From the sequence record OZ035768.1: DNA of 55,927 nt. One strand, 5' to 3'. Source of the stretch: Sashavirus 536P12. The notes beneath the pieces were generated by a model. The model worked only from the letters and a program-made list of their open reading frames with translations. It was not told the DNA's origin and made no database searches. The translations under genes were made by a program, and so were the position numbers. This document shows positions 6,457-29,103 of the stretch, in pieces (position 1 is the first letter of the stretch; each line of letters starts with the position of its first letter).

Positions 6457-6697
6457 AGGGGTAGACAAAGTAGTCGAAAGTCTGGGGTTACGCGCACACG
6501 TAATCGTAGACGAAGGTCACAGTCAAGAAGTGATCATGAAGTCGGCATTTAACGATTTTAAAGCGTTGGGTTCAATGAGTGGGATCATGGCAGTGATGGC
6601 TACCGGGAAATTAAGTCAGCAACAGTTAGATCTGGCACAACGTATCGCTGTGAAAGTAATTGCCGTTTTAGGTCTTAAAGAGTCAGAAAAAGCGTAA
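6443..6697 (+). CDS. hypothetical protein
   Basis: 84-aa ORF overlapping the upstream gene end (translational coupling). Confidence 0.45.
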   Translation: MTKNEGVDKVVESLGLRAHVIVDEGHSQEVIMKSAFNDFKALGSMSGIMAVMATGKLSQQQLDLAQRIAVKVIAVLGLKESEKA

Positions 6698-6710
6698 AAA
6701 GGGGGTTATT

Positions 6711-6875
6711 ATGTGTTGTAGAACATCGTGTTGTCTGGGAAGTCCTGTTACGCAATTTGGTCTTCTTCAGTCACAGATTGCACATACTCAGGTCGTTTTC
6801 AGAGGGTTTACCAGTCCGTTCATAGTACCGTTACAGTTTTCCGCGTTCACGTTTAGGCCTTTTGTATTTTACTGA
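6711..6875 (+). CDS. small Cys-rich protein (54 aa), unannotated in the ORF track
   Basis: ATG at 6711 preceded by AAGGGGG SD at 7-nt spacing; N-terminus MCCRTSCC; ends just before the terminator hairpin. Confidence 0.3.
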   Translation: MCCRTSCCLGSPVTQFGLLQSQIAHTQVVFRGFTSPFIVPLQFSAFTFRPFVFY

Positions 6876-16603: not shown

Positions 16604-16633
16604 GTGGTTAAGAAAACAAGAAGGGTTGAATGT

Positions 16634-17002
16634 ATGGATCCGAACATCAGAATTGCTACAGACGAATTCATTCGTCGCGCCCGTAAAATTCACGGTGATC
16701 GTTACGACTACTCATTCAGCATTGTTGAAGATAGTTCCAGCACCGTGGTTATTATTGACCGTGAAACTAACACAGTGTTTTTCCAGGTTGTCGCTGAACA
16801 TCTGGACGGTGTTGAACCGGTAACGACTGCTGTTGAACCGGTAACGACTGCTGTTGAACCGGTAACGACTGCTGTTGAACCGATCAAGAATCTTTCTGAG
16901 ATATTCGGTAACGTCGTAAACAGCGTGTATCACCAGTGCAATTATTCATCTGAAATGTTAGAATTTAGTCATGTTGAAACAATACGAGGACAATCCCCGT
17001 GA
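16634..17002 (+). CDS. hypothetical protein with tandem VEPVTTA heptad repeats
   Basis: ORF 16604 begins with GTG; likely start ATG 16634 after AAGGG; N-terminal EFIRRARKIHGDRYDYS resembles the repeats of the 25306..26217 protein. Confidence 0.5.
   Translation: MDPNIRIATDEFIRRARKIHGDRYDYSFSIVEDSSSTVVIIDRETNTVFFQVVAEHLDGVEPVTTAVEPVTTAVEPVTTAVEPIKNLSEIFGNVVNSVYHQCNYSSEMLEFSHVETIRGQSP
16811..16882. repeat. 21-bp tandem repeat x3.4 (gttgaaccggtaacgactgct)
   Basis: perfect direct repeats inside the CDS, in frame. Confidence 0.9.
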
Positions 17003-24161: not shown

Positions 24162-24186
24162 GCCCGGTTAACGCCGGGCTTTTTTG
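24162..24186 (+). terminator. rho-independent terminator after major tail gene
   Basis: GCCCGGTTAACGCCGGGC hairpin plus T-run. Confidence 0.7.
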
Positions 24187-24215
24187 TTTATATTTTACCC
24201 TCCTGCATCAATCCT

Positions 24216-24452
24216 TCAGCAACAGTCATTTGGTAACGTGGTGCTTTCCATGCTTGAAGTGCTTTTTCTGCGCTTTTTTTGTGTTTTATACGGTTTGATA
24301 CTTGTTAAAATAGCAGTTGTAATACCTGCACCATAACCACGGTCTGTTTCCTGACAAACTCGAAACAAACCATCAATTTGTTTAACTACTAAACGTTTGA
24401 ACGCAATATTGCCCGTTTCTTTGTTGATGTAGCGTTGAATTACCCGTTCCAT
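24216..24452 (-). CDS. hypothetical protein
   Basis: 78 aa; GAGGG SD; driven by P9. Confidence 0.4.
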   Translation of the reverse strand: MERVIQRYINKETGNIAFKRLVVKQIDGLFRVCQETDRGYGAGITTAILTSIKPYKTQKKRRKSTSSMESTTLPNDCC

Positions 24453-24479
24453 TATTTTAACCCTCAGTTCGTTTCGTTG

Positions 24480-24526
24480 AGTTAAAGATACCTTAACAGG
24501 TGTAATTCGTCAAGAATTATTTTAAA
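24480..24526 (-). promoter_or_regulatory. conserved promoter element (P9)
   Basis: CGTCAAGAATTATTTTAAA at 24508-24526; minus-strand -35 TTGACG, -10 TATCTT. Confidence 0.65.
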
Positions 24527-24590
24527 TATCTTGCGTAATTTGTACAGAACTATTACTATCTAATCGTCTACTACATAAAAGGTAAAAACC

Positions 24591-25013
24591 ATGTCAAAGT
24601 TTGACCATCTGAAAAAAGCACTTTCTCCATTAGTGCTGAAGTCTTCTGCTGAACTGATTTTAAATGAAAATTTCAGTATCACCGTGTTGAACCTGAACAC
24701 CGCTAACCAGGTATATAACGTAACAGTCGCGGACTATGTAAAACAGAACGGTGTGTTGTCTGAAAACTTCTTTGAAAAACTGTGGAATCAGGAATATACA
24801 CCAGAAGGTGTTAAGTTCGTGGCTAACGTTCTTATGCTGGACTGGAAACTGATTGGTGAAGATGACAAACCGGAACCATTCAGTGTTGAAGAAGCTATTG
24901 AACTGTTAAGTGATGAACGTTTCGGTCAGGTGATCTACAGTCGTGTTATTCAGTTCGCAATTAATTCCGCATTCTTCCAGGACGAATGGGAAAAACAGAT
25001 TGAAAAAAACTGA
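24591..25013 (+). CDS. tail assembly chaperone (gpG-like)
   Basis: 140-aa acidic protein immediately upstream of the frameshift partner and tape measure gene. Confidence 0.55.
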   Translation: MSKFDHLKKALSPLVLKSSAELILNENFSITVLNLNTANQVYNVTVADYVKQNGVLSENFFEKLWNQEYTPEGVKFVANVLMLDWKLIGEDDKPEPFSVEEAIELLSDERFGQVIYSRVIQFAINSAFFQDEWEKQIEKN

Positions 25014-25309
25014 TCGACTTCCTCTTGTGGAACGATAAGACAGACGGGGACGACCTGGACTGGGTTACACAAGGGGCGGCTGCACGTGGTATATCTGTTC
25101 CGAGTGTTGTACAGAAACGTCCTGAATTGCGACCTGATGCTATCTTTTACTGGAATGCTTATCTTGATTTGATAAATAGTGATTGGGTTGCTTGTGAGCG
25201 GTATGCACGGGTGTATAACGTTGATGTACAGTTCCTATGGAAATTATTGGTAGCATTGCGGTCTGCACGTGTTGTCGAGATGAAGAAAAATAAACATAAG
25301 CCCGGTTAG
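24591..25309 (+). CDS. tail assembly chaperone frameshift product (gpGT-like), -1 frameshift at A_AAA_AAC (25004-25010)
   Basis: slippery heptamer A AAA AAC just before the G stop (25011-25013); -1 frame is open from 25004 to 25309 (ORF 25025..25309). Confidence 0.5.
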
Positions 25310-25322
25310 TTCCGGGCTTTTT
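25299..25322. terminator. bidirectional terminator hairpin
   Basis: AAGCCCGGTTAGTTCCGGGCTT followed by a T-run, at the junction of convergent genes. Confidence 0.6.
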
Positions 25323-26217
25323 CATTTATGTAGTCGAGGATTGCGGGAGAATATTTAAACCACTCTGTAGCACCGTCAAAGCCTTTGAGACGCGCATTAA
25401 GTTCACGGAAGACCTTGTGTACCTCTTGTTCCAGTTTGTAAGCATCAGCGCCGTGTGGAAATGGATACGACACGAGTTTAACCACGGGGTGCGGAGTTCG
25501 TCGTTGTAGTTGTCGTAGTCGCTGTTTTAAGTCGTTTGTAACACCGACTTTAAGCAGAGTGGGACACTGTTTATCATCGGTTAACACGTAGAGTGTACCG
25601 GGTTCAAGTGGGTTGAAACCCGCTTGTGAACATTGTGGGCAAGCGTTTAAACAGCAATGGTTATTAGGAGTCTGTTCAAACACCCCATGCTCGGGACATA
25701 TTATTTTTACTCGAGTGAAATTATTAATATACTCCACCAGTGAGTAATCGTATTTGTTTCCGTGAATTTCACGAGCACGATTGACGAATTCTTCAGTAGT
25801 CAAGCGTTGTTGTTCAGACGACTGTTCCCGAGCACATTGTGGGCAACCTCTCCCGTGAACATGGTTGTTAGGAGTCTGTTCAAACACCCCATGCTCTGGG
25901 CATGTTATTTTTACTTTAGTATGAGCGCCTTTATGTTCCACCAACGAGTAATCGTATTTGTGTCCATGGAGTTCACGCGCCCGTGTGATGAATTCTTCTA
26001 CAGGTGATCGTTTTTGTTCTACCGCACACCATGGACACCCATGTTTCAAAGAAACATGATTATTAGGAATCTGTTCAAACACACCATGTTCTGGACAGGT
26101 GACCTTCACAGGAGTACACCAATTCACATACTCCACTAGCGAGTAATCGTATTTGTGCCCGTGAAGTTCACGGGCACGCGTGATAAACTCTTCTGTGGTT
26201 AAACGTTTCCTACTCAT
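25306..26217 (-). CDS. T5orf172 (GIY-YIG-like) domain protein with three N-terminal zinc-ribbon-like repeats (homing-endonuclease-like)
   Basis: 303 aa; three ~65-aa repeats (TTEEF..RARELHGHKYDYSLVEY...CPEHGVFEQ.PNNH...GCPxC); C-terminal LYVLTDD...LLKVGVTNDLKQRL matches the T5orf172 signature. Confidence 0.55.
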   Translation of the reverse strand: MSRKRLTTEEFITRARELHGHKYDYSLVEYVNWCTPVKVTCPEHGVFEQIPNNHVSLKHGCPWCAVEQKRSPVEEFITRARELHGHKYDYSLVEHKGAHTKVKITCPEHGVFEQTPNNHVHGRGCPQCAREQSSEQQRLTTEEFVNRAREIHGNKYDYSLVEYINNFTRVKIICPEHGVFEQTPNNHCCLNACPQCSQAGFNPLEPGTLYVLTDDKQCPTLLKVGVTNDLKQRLRQLQRRTPHPVVKLVSYPFPHGADAYKLEQEVHKVFRELNARLKGFDGATEWFKYSPAILDYINEKARN

Positions 26218-26218
26218 C

Positions 26219-26398
26219 TTATTTGTCGCTTTTTAACACAGACCAGATTAACGCACCTAACCAACCGATGAATGTCCAACCCGCAAAGATGTTAAGTAAA
26301 ATAATTGCTGTTTGTTGTTTATGTTTAACGTTAATCGCGATGAGTGCTGGGATCAGATATACAGCAGCGATTAAGAAAAGAATGATGAAACTAGCCAT
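26219..26398 (-). CDS. superinfection immunity (Imm-like) small membrane protein
   Basis: 59 aa; strong SD GGAGGG; two TM segments and LLNIFAGWTFIGWLGALIW motif; the + ORF 26223..26405 is its mirror. Confidence 0.55.
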   Translation of the reverse strand: MASFIILFLIAAVYLIPALIAINVKHKQQTAIILLNIFAGWTFIGWLGALIWSVLKSDK

Positions 26399-26452
26399 TT
26401 TGTAACCCTCCGTTGTTTTGTTGATTGTAGTTTACACACCATTGTGCAATCC

Positions 26453-26470
26453 GTCAAGAATTATTTTAAA
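26453..26470 (-). promoter_or_regulatory. conserved promoter element (P10)
   Basis: GTCAAGAATTATTTTAAA at 26453-26470; minus-strand -35 TTGACG. Confidence 0.65.
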
Positions 26471-26514
26471 CATTTGTCGCTTTTTAGACCCGTGTTAAAC
26501 TGTGTATATGCTTC

Positions 26515-29103
26515 GTGAAAAGGTTAACCACAATGGCACAGTATCCGATTGATATAAAAATAGACACTGGTAACGCTGACAGAAATCTTAACAGCCTTAA
26601 TAACCAGTTAGACCAAACAGCTAATTCTGCAAAATCTGCTGCACAAGCGGCAAACACTTTATCAAAAAGTGAACAGCAAGCTGCAAAATCTGCACAAGTA
26701 ATGGCGTCAAATACTGGTAACGCTACATCATCTTTAAAGACGATGGCATCTGGCGTAAATCTTGCAACAAACGCCGTTCGTGGTTTTATGGCAATAGGTG
26801 CGGTGTCTTCTGCTATTGAGTTAGGAAAAGCGTTTATTGTTGCGGGTGATGCAGCTAATCAACTCGAAGCTCGTATTGCAAGATTGACCGGGAGTACATC
26901 ATCAGCCGAACAAACATTTCAAACACTCGCGGATATTGCCTCTAAAACAGGTGGTGGTCTTGCTGATACTGAACGTTTATGGGAAACCTTATCATCATCA
27001 TTAAAGGATAGCGGCGCAACAAACGATCAGATATTACGATTAACTGAAACACTTCAAAAAATAGGTCGTGTTGGTGGTTCATCTGCTGAAGAAATGTCTA
27101 ACGCATTACGTCAGTTTGGTCAGTCAATTTCATCTGGTGTAGTTCGTGCAGAAGAATTTAACAGCATTGTTGAACAGATGCCAGAACTGGCAAGACAGAT
27201 GGCTGCTGGTTTAGGTATTTCAATGGGTGAGTTACGTCAGCAAATGCTGAATGGTGAACTTACAGCGGAACAAGCATTGAATGCTATCATTCGTCAAACG
27301 CAAAATGTTGATGAAGAATTTAGCAAATTGCCACGGTCTTTAGATCAGGCCACAAATTCGTTATCTGTATCGTTAGCCACGTTTGTTGCAAGCATGAATG
27401 ATGTGACTGGAGCATCAAATCTTGCTGTAAACGCTATTGATACACTTACAGGTTTCATCAATAAATTAGGCGATGATTCAACAACAACTGCTGATAAATT
27501 GTGGTCAATAGCTGGCGTAATATCTAAGTTACAACCTGGTGCTATCGGAGCATCCCTTGCCGATCTGGTCTGGTCTAATGACGATGTAAATAATGCAAAA
27601 GCGTACAATGACCAGGTTGACAGATTTGTTAAAGCATCTGCTGCTGGATACGAACAAGCTGAAAAAAACCGTAATGCTACAAAACCTATTTCTATAAAAG
27701 GGACAAATGCATCAGACGCGGAAGCACAAAAACAGATTAAAAACCTGAAAGAGCAGATCACCTACACCCAGGCGCTTGCTGACGGTAACTATGAACTGGC
27801 AGCAAGTCAGAAACTGGGTAATAAAGCAACAAAGGAACAGATTGCAGACTATGCTGCGTTGTTGAAGCAACAGGCAGAATATAAAGAAAATCAAAAGAAC
27901 CAGAAGAAATCAGCGAGTGCTGAAGCATCTGCGGCTAAACGTGCACAGAAAGAACTGGAACGTAATCAGGCTGCTAACCAGAAATACCTGAAAACGCTTC
28001 AGGATAAAATCAATGCTGGTAATTATGATGTTCAGTTAGCACGTGAACTGGTTCAGATCGCTTTAACACAGGGGTCGTCTGTTGAACAACTTACAGCAAT
28101 GTATCAGAAAGAATATCAGGTACGTCAACAGTTAACGCTGGCTTCACAACAAGCAGAAGCACAGTCACGACTGAATAAAGACGCGACTGATGCTGAACGT
28201 GCCGCTGTTGATGCGCATGTGGCTGCATTGCAACGACAACAGCAGATAGCACAGTTAAGCGCAGATGTAAAACAAGTTGAATTAGATACCACAGGTATTC
28301 TTAATCCTGAGCAAGCCAAACTGGATGCTATAAACCAGCAAGAAGCCACTCGTCTTAGTATTGTTCAGGCGGCCCGTGAACAAGATTTAATCAACGAGCA
28401 ACAATACCAGGACATGAAAACGCAGATTCAACAGGCCGGGGAATTGCAACGTAATGATATGATGATGCAAAACAATGCATTACTATTGTCATCTACTGGT
28501 GATTTTTTCGGTGCAATGGGTGATGTTCTGAAAAATGCTAAAGGCGAACAGTCAGGCATTTATAAAGCGATGTTTGCCGCAAGTAAAGCGTTTGCCATAG
28601 CATCTGCATCAATTAACCTGTGGCAAAACGTCAGTAAAGCAATGTCTGTTGGTTTCCCAATGAACATTCCATTCATTGCCGGGGCTATGGCACAAGGTAC
28701 GGCAATTCTTCAAAGTTTATCATCTGTACAGGCTGCGGGGTTCGCTACGGGTGGTTTAGTTACTGGTCCTGGTACTGGTCAAAGTGATAGCATTAACGCA
28801 CGTTTAAGTAATGGGGAATTTGTCAGTACCAAACAGGCTACTAGTCGTTACCGTAATACACTGGAAGCAATGAACCGTGGTACATACACAGAGAACGGTC
28901 AGGGTAGTTCAGGTGTAAACGTACAGGTTTCCAATTATGGTGGTGAACGTGTTCGTGTGCAACAAGGCTTAACTCCCGATGATGTTCGTATTATCATAGG
29001 TGAAGAAGTACCCCGTATTAACCAACGTGAATTTAATGACCCTTATAGTAAAACAAATAAAGCGTTTCGTACTAACTATGAAGCACAAAGGAAAACATCA
29101 TGA
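26515..29103 (+). CDS. tape measure protein
   Basis: 862 aa, long helical Ala/Gln-rich protein downstream of the G/GT chaperones. Confidence 0.8.
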   Translation: MKRLTTMAQYPIDIKIDTGNADRNLNSLNNQLDQTANSAKSAAQAANTLSKSEQQAAKSAQVMASNTGNATSSLKTMASGVNLATNAVRGFMAIGAVSSAIELGKAFIVAGDAANQLEARIARLTGSTSSAEQTFQTLADIASKTGGGLADTERLWETLSSSLKDSGATNDQILRLTETLQKIGRVGGSSAEEMSNALRQFGQSISSGVVRAEEFNSIVEQMPELARQMAAGLGISMGELRQQMLNGELTAEQALNAIIRQTQNVDEEFSKLPRSLDQATNSLSVSLATFVASMNDVTGASNLAVNAIDTLTGFINKLGDDSTTTADKLWSIAGVISKLQPGAIGASLADLVWSNDDVNNAKAYNDQVDRFVKASAAGYEQAEKNRNATKPISIKGTNASDAEAQKQIKNLKEQITYTQALADGNYELAASQKLGNKATKEQIADYAALLKQQAEYKENQKNQKKSASAEASAAKRAQKELERNQAANQKYLKTLQDKINAGNYDVQLARELVQIALTQGSSVEQLTAMYQKEYQVRQQLTLASQQAEAQSRLNKDATDAERAAVDAHVAALQRQQQIAQLSADVKQVELDTTGILNPEQAKLDAINQQEATRLSIVQAAREQDLINEQQYQDMKTQIQQAGELQRNDMMMQNNALLLSSTGDFFGAMGDVLKNAKGEQSGIYKAMFAASKAFAIASASINLWQNVSKAMSVGFPMNIPFIAGAMAQGTAILQSLSSVQAAGFATGGLVTGPGTGQSDSINARLSNGEFVSTKQATSRYRNTLEAMNRGTYTENGQGSSGVNVQVSNYGGERVRVQQGLTPDDVRIIIGEEVPRINQREFNDPYSKTNKAFRTNYEAQRKTS

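What the first reader, a model, noticed from the sequence alone, without database searches (positions are those of the whole stretch)
25306..26470. Homing-endonuclease-like T5orf172 protein with a triplicated zinc-ribbon module, plus an Imm-like protein, inserted between tail chaperone and tape measure genes
A minus-strand cassette headed by P10 sits where G/GT and the tape measure gene are normally contiguous. It encodes a 59-aa two-TM protein with a GWTFIGWLGALIW motif (T4 Imm-like superinfection immunity) and a 303-aa protein with three ~65-aa repeats (HGHKYDYS...CPEHGVFEQ...CPxC) fused to a T5orf172/GIY-YIG-like domain. One copy of the repeat also forms the N-terminus of the iteron-adjacent gene at 16634, suggesting a shared DNA-binding module.
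Basis: partly seen in the sequence, partly recalled or inferred. Interest (0 to 1): 0.5.

Follow-up and report, generated by a model that had tools for sequence, protein, structure and literature searches.

The report
Homing endonuclease plus Imm gene cassette
A 1.2-kb two-gene insert between the tail-chaperone and tape-measure genes of a 9NA/Sasha-like coliphage encodes a probable homing endonuclease and a small T4-Imm-like membrane protein; both belong to already described families, so this is a clear example rather than something new.

Summary
Window 25326-26490 is a discrete 1165-bp insert on the minus strand. It carries a sigma70-like promoter, a 59-aa Imm_superinfect protein and a 303-aa protein. 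The 303-aa protein has three tandem C-x2-H...C-x2-C zinc modules (DUF723/CapR/DUF4379 type) fused to a T5orf172 domain. That domain models confidently as a GIY-YIG nuclease fold and keeps the conserved Tyr, Arg and Glu positions.

Relatives show a clean presence/absence polymorphism at one identical site: 8 carriers and 9 verified empty sites, with no intermediate state. The cassette occurs beside at least three tape-measure alleles. In the window it sits at a sharp identity breakpoint (96.5% on the left, about 75% or unalignable on the right). The zinc modules are hypervariable (62-83% DNA identity) inside 90-99% identical surroundings. Two of the 8 carriers have a broken nuclease gene, while the Imm gene is intact in all 8.

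The gene near 16634 does not hold a shared DNA-binding module. It is an internally deleted relic of a second endonuclease gene.

All of this matches the T5orf172 homing endonucleases described by Barth et al. 2023. Relatives' GenBank records already label the two genes 'endonuclease' and 'superinfection immunity protein'. The only modestly new points are the fixed Imm-endonuclease linkage and its position next to the tape-measure gene, whose T4 counterpart (gp29) is the protein that T4 Imm binds.

The parts
25326..26490 (.). The inserted cassette (1165 bp). It replaces 13 nt (ATATTATGGTTAA) of the empty site found in cassette-less relatives.
   Evidence: Junction alignments with PDP46 and Sasha, anchor coordinates, and identical junctions in L018.
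25306..26217 (-). 303-aa T5orf172 (GIY-YIG superfamily) endonuclease gene with three zinc modules. Its last 5-6 codons (..EKARN*) lie in pre-existing flank sequence.
   Evidence: (phrog_681 'endonuclease', 5.5e-86). The C-terminal tail is site-specific among paralogs.
25309..25605 (-). T5orf172 / GIY-YIG nuclease domain (aa ~205-303) with conserved Y210, K223, G225, R233, E263, H267 and T284-E285-W286-F287.
26014..26205 (-). Zinc module 1 (aa 5-68; ligands C41, H44, C61, C64).
   Evidence: pLDDT >90 in the full model.
25816..26010 (-). Zinc module 2 (aa 70-134; ligands C106, H109, C125, C128).
25618..25806 (-). Zinc module 3 (aa 138-200; ligands C174, H177, C193, C196).
26219..26398 (-). 59-aa Imm_superinfect-family membrane protein with two hydrophobic segments. 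Its stop codon is 1 nt from the endonuclease ATG (TAA-G-ATG).
   Evidence: Pfam 62.8 bits against a cut-off of 27.9, phrog_1039; 30% identity to T4 Imm over 47 aa; hydropathy; sequence.
26406..26411 (-). Shine-Dalgarno-like GGAGGG upstream of the Imm ATG.
   Evidence: Read directly from the sequence.
26429..26457 (-). Sigma70-like promoter match TTGACG-17-TAAACT heading the cassette.
   Evidence: Consensus match only; conserved region in all carriers (92-95% identity).
25298..25319 (.). Bidirectional terminator hairpin that pre-exists in empty-site genomes. The chaperone T ORF and the endonuclease ORF both end in its loop (TTAG).
   Evidence: present in PDP46 and Sasha; annotated as a terminator in Sasha.
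26221..26235 (.). Copy 1 of a 15-nt direct repeat ATTTGTCGCTTTTTA (3' end of the Imm ORF).
26472..26486 (.). Copy 2 of the 15-nt direct repeat, 4 nt inside the tape-measure-side edge of the insert. Together the two copies bracket the promoter plus Imm gene.
   Evidence: conserved in all 8 carriers.
24591..25309 (+). Left flank: tail assembly chaperone G (24591-25013) and T (25025-25309). It is 96.5% identical to cassette-less PDP46 and Sasha up to 25329.
26533..29103 (+). Right flank: tape measure gene (ATG at 26533; a GTG at 26515 would give 862 aa). It is a divergent mosaic allele relative to Sasha and PDP46.
16604..17002 (+). Relic of a second, paralogous endonuclease gene (probable start ATG 16634). 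It retains a degenerate first repeat, a 21-nt x3.5 tandem repeat (16810-16882) and the last ~20 codons.

Best explanation
The insert is a two-gene mobile cassette in a virulent 9NA/Sasha-like siphophage. Inferred from consensus signals: it is transcribed from its own sigma70-type promoter, against the direction of the late tail operon, and ends at the pre-existing bidirectional terminator after the chaperone gene. The second gene encodes a free-standing homing endonuclease. Three tandem zinc modules arranged like beads on a string provide site recognition, and a C-terminal T5orf172 (GIY-YIG-fold) domain cuts DNA. Inferred mechanism: in a mixed infection the enzyme cuts the uninterrupted chaperone/tape-measure junction of a cassette-less relative, and recombinational repair from the carrier genome copies the whole insert into the break. 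The carrier's own site is protected because the insert splits it. The first gene encodes a T4-Imm-type inner-membrane protein. Most likely it blocks genome entry of later-arriving phages by interfering with their tape measure protein, as shown for T4 Imm, and it travels as beneficial cargo. Shown here: domain content, fold, conserved catalytic and zinc-ligand residues, precise site-specific indel polymorphism, occurrence on several tape-measure backgrounds, decay of the nuclease but not of the Imm gene, and paralogs and a relic at other sites. Inferred: cleavage, homing, timing of expression, and exclusion.
Against: No activity data exist for either protein. Homing has not been shown experimentally for any T5orf172 enzyme in the papers I read; the evidence there is comparative, plus Odn's nuclease activity. 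All carriers share one junction, so a single ancestral insertion spread by ordinary homologous recombination would give the same pattern. L018's right flank is Sasha-type right up to the junction, so no co-conversion tract is visible. The zinc modules differ widely between carriers that share the same site, which is odd if target specificity were constrained. Exclusion of late-arriving phages would reduce the co-infections that homing needs. The 59-aa protein covers only residues 22-68 of T4 Imm, and T4 R33 is not conserved.
Confidence: 0.72

Rival explanations
1. The 303-aa protein is no longer a homing enzyme. It is a co-opted site-specific nuclease or DNA-binding regulator, like ICP1 Odn (anti-satellite nuclease) or PLE CapR (repressor). 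It would act on a competitor's DNA or on phage transcription, and the cassette stays in place because it is useful.
For: T5orf172 and CapR-type proteins have been co-opted in exactly these ways. The zinc modules vary strongly among carriers with an unchanged insertion site, as expected if the real target is something else that evolves. I-TevI doubles as an autorepressor (cited).
Against: The gene is dispensable: it is broken in 2 of 8 carriers. It is absent from close relatives whose chaperone G protein is 100% identical. The family has multiple paralogs next to essential genes and a decayed relic, which is the typical selfish-element pattern.
Confidence: 0.13
2. The cassette is an ordinary moron that arose once and spreads only by general homologous recombination between tail modules. 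The nuclease gene is a passenger or inactive, and the identity breakpoint merely reflects module boundaries.
For: All carriers share one junction. The chaperone/tape-measure slot is a classic moron site, as with HK97 gene 15. Imm-like morons sit in the tail modules of Skate and Bas77 with no endonuclease. A second indel slot with unrelated genes lies 1 kb upstream.
Against: Catalytic and zinc-ligand residues are conserved in most copies. The same family sits at other essential-gene junctions in the same phage group. The cassette is found on three tape-measure backgrounds with breakpoints exactly at its edges, which nuclease-stimulated recombination explains more easily.
Confidence: 0.12
3. The 59-aa protein is not a superinfection-exclusion factor. 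It is a small membrane protein with another role (for example lysis timing or membrane stress), and the Pfam name is misleading.
For: Only T4 Imm has been characterised in this family. The protein is shorter than T4 Imm (59 against 83 aa) and only 30% identical. No PADLOC or NCBIfam match.
Against: Strong full-length match to the 42-residue Imm_superinfect core, scoring higher than T4 Imm itself (62.8 against 58.2 bits). The W50 equivalent is conserved. High conservation and 8 of 8 intact copies indicate selection. Small membrane exclusion proteins next to tape-measure genes have a precedent in HK97 gp15.
Confidence: 0.3

Closest known systems
T5orf172-family homing endonucleases of ICP1, T5-like and other phages, with repeated CapR/DUF723/DUF4379 zinc-finger modules (Barth, Dunham & Seed 2023, PMC10448857)
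   Same: Same domain architecture of N-terminal tandem zinc modules plus a C-terminal T5orf172 domain. Repeat-number changes by recombination between repeats (2, 3 or 4 modules here). Location beside essential structural genes, including chaperone and tape-measure genes. Position at boundaries of genetic exchange. Several paralogs per genome.
   Different: Here the gene is fixed in a two-gene unit with an Imm-type gene. The zinc ligand pattern is C-x2-H...C-x2-C, whereas CapR is reported as CxxC...CxC. No member of this Sasha/9NA lineage has been studied.
ICP1 Odn (Gp88), a T5orf172 nuclease (PMC8263062)
   Same: T5orf172 catalytic domain with conserved Arg and Glu. Odn shows that this domain cuts DNA in vitro and in vivo.
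   Different: Odn uses a RepA_N DNA-binding domain and is an anti-satellite weapon, not a homing element. It has no zinc modules.
I-TevI and the T4 Seg proteins (GIY-YIG free-standing and intron homing endonucleases)
   Different: Domain order is reversed: the nuclease is N-terminal in I-TevI and C-terminal here. The DNA-binding modules are different. There is no detectable sequence similarity to any solved structure.
T4 Imm (PF14373), which blocks genome entry by binding tape measure protein gp29 (bioRxiv 10.64898/2026.03.06.709160)
   Same: Same Pfam family, and the W50 equivalent is conserved. T4 Imm is a small membrane protein, and two hydrophobic segments here suggest the same. Like T4, this phage group is virulent (from my own knowledge).
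   Different: 59 aa against 83 aa, aligning only to T4 Imm residues 22-68 and so lacking its N-terminal part and C-terminal tail. Encoded directly beside the tape measure gene and linked to an endonuclease gene. The host phage is a siphovirus. Function untested.
HK97 gene 15 moron (Cumby et al. 2012; PMC3594210)
   Same: A small inner-membrane protein gene in exactly the same slot between the chaperone and tape-measure genes. HK97 gp15 excludes phages at genome entry in a tail-dependent manner.
   Different: Not homologous: it belongs to the YebO family and gives no alignment. It is co-oriented with the tail operon, expressed from a prophage, and has no linked nuclease.

Membership tests
T5orf172 / GIY-YIG nuclease superfamily | Profile match above the curated cut-off | tested here: met
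   PF10544 52.3 bits (cut-off 20) and PF13455 48.1 bits (cut-off 22.3), aa 207-295.
T5orf172 / GIY-YIG nuclease superfamily | GIY-YIG alpha/beta fold | tested here: met
T5orf172 / GIY-YIG nuclease superfamily | Conserved catalytic Tyr, Arg and Glu | tested here: met
   Y210 and E285 are invariant and R233 is at least 90% conserved among 24 homologs. Equivalence to I-TevI and Odn residues rests on motif order, not on structural superposition.
T5orf172 / GIY-YIG nuclease superfamily | DNA cleavage activity | not testable with these tools
   Requires a biochemical assay. Precedent: Odn.
Free-standing homing endonuclease gene | Presence/absence polymorphism at one precise site in otherwise collinear genomes | tested here: met
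   8 carriers with identical junctions, 9 verified empty sites and no intermediates.
Free-standing homing endonuclease gene | Signs of the invasion, decay and loss cycle, and paralogs at other sites | tested here: met
   Truncated copy in PJ16, frameshifted copy in BDX09P1, relic at 16604, paralogs at three other sites.
Free-standing homing endonuclease gene | Cuts the endonuclease-less allele and is inherited above the input ratio in crosses | not testable with these tools
   Needs a cleavage assay and mixed infections.
Free-standing homing endonuclease gene | Co-conversion of flanking markers | tested here: inconclusive
   There is a sharp identity breakpoint at the cassette in the window. 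L018, however, has Sasha-type sequence right up to both junctions.
CapR/DUF723/DUF4379 zinc-finger DNA-binding modules | Profile match above the cut-off | tested here: met
   DUF723 47.6 bits (cut-off 20.9) and CapR 25.0 (cut-off 24.2). DUF4379 at 22.5 is below its cut-off of 24.5.
CapR/DUF723/DUF4379 zinc-finger DNA-binding modules | Four conserved zinc ligands per module | tested here: met
   C-x2-H...C-x2-C is invariant in all three modules and in 24 homologs. The pattern differs from the CxxC...CxC reported for CapR.
CapR/DUF723/DUF4379 zinc-finger DNA-binding modules | Known fold or sequence-specific DNA binding | tested here: inconclusive
Imm_superinfect (T4 Imm family) | Profile match above the cut-off | tested here: met
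   62.8 bits (cut-off 27.9), covering the full 42-position profile. T4 Imm itself scores 58.2.
Imm_superinfect (T4 Imm family) | Small membrane protein with a hydrophobic helical core | tested here: met
   Kyte-Doolittle means of 2.7-2.85 (aa 2-22) and 1.2-1.9 (aa 30-55), with a basic loop between.
Imm_superinfect (T4 Imm family) | Residues shown to matter in T4 Imm (W50, R33) | tested here: inconclusive
   W50 aligns with conserved W41. R33 aligns with V24, next to K25.
Imm_superinfect (T4 Imm family) | Blocks genome entry and binds the tape measure protein | not testable with these tools
   Needs plating, DNA-entry and co-purification experiments.
HK97 gp15-type moron | Homology to gp15 / YebO | tested here: not met
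   No BLASTP alignment; gp15 hits PF13974 YebO. The analogy is in position and function only.

The most novel reading that the evidence does not exclude
The Imm gene and the endonuclease gene form one co-adapted phage-against-phage competition module placed deliberately at the tape measure gene. The Imm-type protein blocks tape-measure-mediated genome delivery by later-arriving relatives. The endonuclease cuts the chaperone/tape-measure junction of simultaneously co-infecting cassette-less relatives. It possibly reads the three GTTAA(A)C motifs of the empty site with its three zinc modules. By stimulating recombination exactly there it also drives exchange of tape-measure alleles, which would fuel an Imm-versus-tape-measure arms race. 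The conserved 15-nt direct repeat bracketing the promoter and Imm gene would be the scar, or a control site, of how the two genes were joined.
Probability: 0.15. Interest if true: 0.6.

Novelty: new member of a known kind. Interest (0 to 1): 0.3.

Why it matters
If confirmed, this would be a compact and genetically tractable example of a homing endonuclease carrying a useful cargo gene. One carrier is in a phage collection described as shared with the community (Bas82, BASEL), and natural empty-site partners exist (PDP46, AVIO78A, Sasha). The cassette lies at a junction where tail modules are visibly being exchanged. It could be used to test three things directly: whether T5orf172 enzymes really home; how tandem zinc modules set target specificity; and whether Imm-type proteins of siphoviruses act on the tape measure protein, as recently shown for T4. 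As it stands, it mainly confirms patterns already published for this enzyme family.

Tried and rejected
1. **Cassette tied to one tape-measure allele.** I tested whether the cassette simply came in with a foreign tail module. Rejected: L018 has the cassette in a Sasha-type genome with a 960-aa tape measure protein, and L019 has a 925-aa one.
2. **Imm and endonuclease genes travelling together elsewhere.** Not found. Skate and swi2 have both genes but far apart, and in Skate and Bas77 the Imm gene sits in a tail-module moron cluster without an endonuclease.
3. **A recent donor for the divergent zinc modules.** I searched the paralogs I hold. None exceeds 82% identity, and there are only hints of out-of-register matches.
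4. **HK97 gp15 homology.** None.
6. **Other libraries.** NCBIfam gave no hits. PADLOC gave only weak PDC-S57 matches to the nuclease domain, so this is not a recognised defence system.
8. **BASEL paper.** It does not discuss the cassette.
9. **Base composition.** It gives no sign of foreign origin: 0.37-0.46 GC across the cassette, close to the 0.36-0.49 of the flanks.
Full report
**What is there**

They lie between the tail assembly chaperone pair (G 24591..25013; T 25025..25309) and the tape measure gene (TMP_3, E 6.7e-53). The tape measure gene starts at ATG 26533, or at GTG 26515.

The 303-aa protein has three tandem modules of about 65 aa. At the DNA level these are 163-nt copies at 72-75% identity. 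At the protein level they are 63-75% identical, with invariant HG.KYDYS...CPEHGVFEQ...C..C. The modules match DUF723 (E 1.6e-12) and CapR (2.1e-5). They also match DUF4379 (1.3e-4), just below Pfam's cut-off. The C-terminal 100 residues match T5orf172 (8.6e-14) and MUG113 (1.8e-12). PHROGs places the whole protein in phrog_681 'endonuclease' (5.5e-86).

The 59-aa protein matches Imm_superinfect over the full profile (2.8e-17, 62.8 bits) and phrog_1039 'immunity to superinfection'. T4 Imm itself scores 58.2 bits on the same profile and aligns at 30% identity over 47 residues. The protein has two hydrophobic segments separated by a basic loop.

**Which phage this is, and the insertion polymorphism**

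The window is a 9NA/Sasha-like siphovirus of E. coli. The closest GenBank record is Escherichia phage KarinMuster_Bas82 (93% over this region). There the two genes are already annotated 'endonuclease' and 'superinfection immunity protein'.

Cassette-less relatives (PDP46, Sasha, 9NA) have the chaperone and tape measure genes 57-72 nt apart. Junction alignments show that shared sequence ends at window 25325 (...GGGCTTTTTCAT) and resumes at 26491 (CGTGTTAAACTG...). The insert is therefore 25326-26490 (1165 bp), and it replaces 13 nt (ATATTATGGTTAA) of the empty site.

The same junctions occur in every carrier examined: the window, Bas82, PJ16, BDX09P1, two IMG/VR contigs (L006, L007) and two ENA contigs (L018, L019). 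A survey through the chaperone protein in IMG/VR returned 9 loci. Two were the IMG/VR carrier contigs already counted (L024 = L007, L026 = L006). Seven were empty sites, one of which (L028) is 9NA itself. Two of the empty sites have a chaperone G protein 100% identical to the window's. No Imm-only or endonuclease-only state was seen.

**The cassette is a discrete unit, not part of one tail-module allele**

In the window the cassette sits at a sharp breakpoint. The left flank is 96.5% identical to PDP46 for 4.65 kb, up to 25329. The right flank is about 75% identical, or unalignable between 26697 and 27728.

That first suggested the cassette arrived together with a foreign tape measure gene. 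L018 rules this out. L018 is collinear with cassette-less Sasha at 93-97% on both sides, including the whole 960-aa tape measure gene, and differs only by the 1153-bp insert at the same position. L019 carries the same cassette next to a 925-aa hybrid tape measure gene. The cassette therefore occurs on at least three tape-measure backgrounds, with recombination breakpoints at its edges. This is the pattern that Barth et al. 2023 summarised as nuclease genes occupying boundaries of genetic exchange (PMC10448857).

**The endonuclease**

An AlphaFold2 model built from 24 homologs is confident (mean pLDDT 86). Its low pTM (0.42) fits independent beads on a string.

Across homologs down to 36% identity, the invariant or near-invariant positions in this domain are Y210, K223, G225, R233, E263, H267 and G282/T284-E285-W286-F287. 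These correspond to the Tyr, Arg and Glu of the GIY-YIG motif set. Each module also has an invariant C-x2-H...C-x2-C.

A T5orf172 domain has been shown to be a nuclease in ICP1 Odn, where the Glu mutant E180A is inactive in vitro and in vivo (PMC8263062). The CapR-type zinc module has been shown to bind DNA (bioRxiv 10.1101/2020.11.28.402263). The family is large: 578 phage records match at E < 1e-20, often with several copies per genome.

**Selfish-element signatures**

- **Paralogs at other sites.** Paralogs with the same architecture sit at other junctions next to essential genes in this phage group. 9NA gp46 lies between the tail terminator and tail tube genes. In the L018-type phage two more lie next to the portal gene and the Mu-F-like gene.
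- **Module number.** Copy number of the modules at this site varies: 2 in PJ16, 3 in most carriers, and 4 in P0003, which ends with the site-specific tail INEKARN.
- **Decay.** Two carriers have a damaged nuclease. PJ16 has lost a module and stops before TEWF. BDX09P1 is frameshifted inside the domain, although a sequencing error cannot be excluded there.
- **ORF end in the flank.** The endonuclease ORF runs into the flank. Its last 5-6 codons and stop are the complement of the pre-existing terminator hairpin. Paralogs at other sites have different tails.
- **Hypervariable zinc modules.** The zinc-module region is only 62-83% identical between most carrier pairs (one PJ16 module reaches 96%). 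It sits inside 90-99% identical surroundings: nuclease domain 90-94%, Imm gene 97-99%, chaperone genes 93-99%. Some best matches are out of register, but no recent donor was found. Barth et al. report the same repeat recombination and domain shuffling.

**The gene near 16634**

Proteins P0029 and P0015 (372 and 374 aa) begin with the same odd N-terminus (DEFIRRA...IIDRETNTVFFQ...VEPVTTAVEP) and end with the same ...RGQSP. Between these ends they contain three intact zinc modules and a T5orf172 domain.

P0029 is encoded in L017 directly upstream of the same 136-, 421-, 136- and 339-aa head genes as in the window. The window matches L017 nt 1-420 at 96% and nt 1271 onward at 86%. The ~850 nt in between are replaced by extra copies of a 21-nt repeat (x3.5, 16810-16882) plus a short unique stretch.

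The ORF is thus a deletion relic of a second endonuclease gene. Its repeat copy has lost the zinc ligands, so it is not evidence for a shared working DNA-binding module.

**The Imm-like gene**

It is intact in all 8 carriers and highly conserved even where the nuclease is broken. This argues that it is kept by selection and that the nuclease gene is the dispensable, selfish partner.

The family is common: 922 phage records match. In Skate-like phages an Imm gene also sits in a reverse-strand moron cluster inside the tail module, without an endonuclease.

A 2026 preprint shows that T4 Imm blocks genome translocation by binding the tape measure protein, with W50 important for activity. W50 aligns with conserved W41 here, whereas R33 does not align with a basic residue.

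HK97 gene 15, the original 'moron', occupies exactly the same chaperone/tape-measure slot and excludes phages at genome entry in a tail-dependent way. It belongs to the unrelated YebO family. The most likely role of the 59-aa protein is therefore exclusion at genome entry, but this rests on family membership and analogy only.

**Expression signals**

- A sigma70-like match (TTGACG-17-TAAACT, 26457..26429, minus strand) and a GGAGGG ribosome-binding site precede the Imm gene.
- The Imm stop and the endonuclease start are 1 nt apart (TAA-G-ATG).
- The unit ends at the bidirectional hairpin 25298-25319, which is already present in empty-site genomes and is annotated as a terminator in Sasha.

These are consensus matches, not evidence of function.

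**Unexplained details**

1. A 15-nt direct repeat (ATTTGTCGCTTTTTA on the + strand) lies at 26221-26235 and 26472-26486. The first copy is the end of the Imm ORF and the second is 4 nt inside the insert edge. Together they bracket exactly the promoter plus Imm gene. The repeat is conserved at both places in all 8 carriers, and in Bas82 both copies share the same G-to-A change. Skate-type Imm proteins end similarly (...KSGDKK), so the edge copy looks like a duplicated Imm 3' fragment.
2. The Sasha-type empty site holds three GTTAA(A)C motifs within 44 nt. The genome-wide density is 1.1 per kb, and the window has no other triple cluster. The insert removes the first motif. 9NA and the Klebsiella-type relatives, none of which carries the cassette, have only one motif. 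This was noticed post hoc. It is offered only as a candidate recognition pattern for the three modules.

**Verdict**

The architecture, genomic behaviour and likely mechanism coincide with the published T5orf172 homing-endonuclease family. The Imm assignment matches existing annotation of relatives. This is a new member of a known kind, of modest interest. The fixed endonuclease-Imm linkage next to the tape measure gene is the only aspect worth an experiment.

Noticed in passing
window 16604-17002 (probable start 16634); compare L017 212-1330: The 132-aa ORF is an internally deleted relic of a second T5orf172 endonuclease gene, which is intact (372 aa) at the same locus in a relative. It contains a perfect 21-nt x3.5 tandem repeat (16810-16882) encoding VEPVTTA repeats; the intact relative has about 1.5 copies.
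   Followed up: yes
window 24189-24530: A second indel slot lies between the tail tube and chaperone genes. The window, Bas82 and PDP46 have a small minus-strand ORF here (24216..24452, phrog_27467, unknown function). Sasha has an unrelated 207-aa gene (gp43, phrog_30881). PJ16, L007, L018 and L019 lack the segment. Terminator-like hairpins lie at 24162-24179 and 24256-24276.
   Followed up: partly
window 26533-29103: The tape measure gene is mosaic among close relatives, with lengths of 856/862, 925, 960 and 971 aa. The 5' ~200 nt and the 3' half align at ~75% with Sasha, while 26697-27728 is unalignable.
   Followed up: partly
window 26221-26235 and 26472-26486: A conserved 15-nt direct repeat brackets the promoter plus Imm gene inside the cassette. 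Both copies co-vary in Bas82. Its origin (joining scar, operator or recombination site) is unknown.
   Followed up: partly
L004 (Sasha) 6690-6745; window 26494 and 26523: Three GTTAA(A)C motifs lie within 44 nt at the empty insertion site of Sasha-clade phages. Two remain in the window, and 9NA and the Klebsiella-type relatives have one. This may be the endonuclease recognition pattern (post-hoc observation).
   Followed up: partly
window 26194-26209 and 26517-26532: A 16-nt inverted repeat (88% complementary) lies between the 5' end of the endonuclease ORF and the ribosome-binding region of the tape measure gene. It may be chance.
   Followed up: no
L005 2318-3214 (9NA gp46); L020 229-1131 and 5001-5891: Paralogous three-module T5orf172 genes sit at other junctions: tail terminator/tail tube in 9NA, and next to the portal and Mu-F-like head genes in an L018-type phage. 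The window has none of these.
   Followed up: partly
Klebsiella phages JustaPhage, JYSS3 and KLPPOU148 (hits H63, H69, H72): Homologs of the endonuclease lie under or between two annotated 'DNA polymerase' CDSs, which suggests polymerase genes split by an endonuclease gene insertion.
   Followed up: no
L033 1048-1960 (BDX09P1) and L002 2558-3169 (PJ16): The endonuclease gene is frameshifted (BDX09P1) or shortened and truncated (PJ16), while the adjacent Imm gene is intact.
   Followed up: yes
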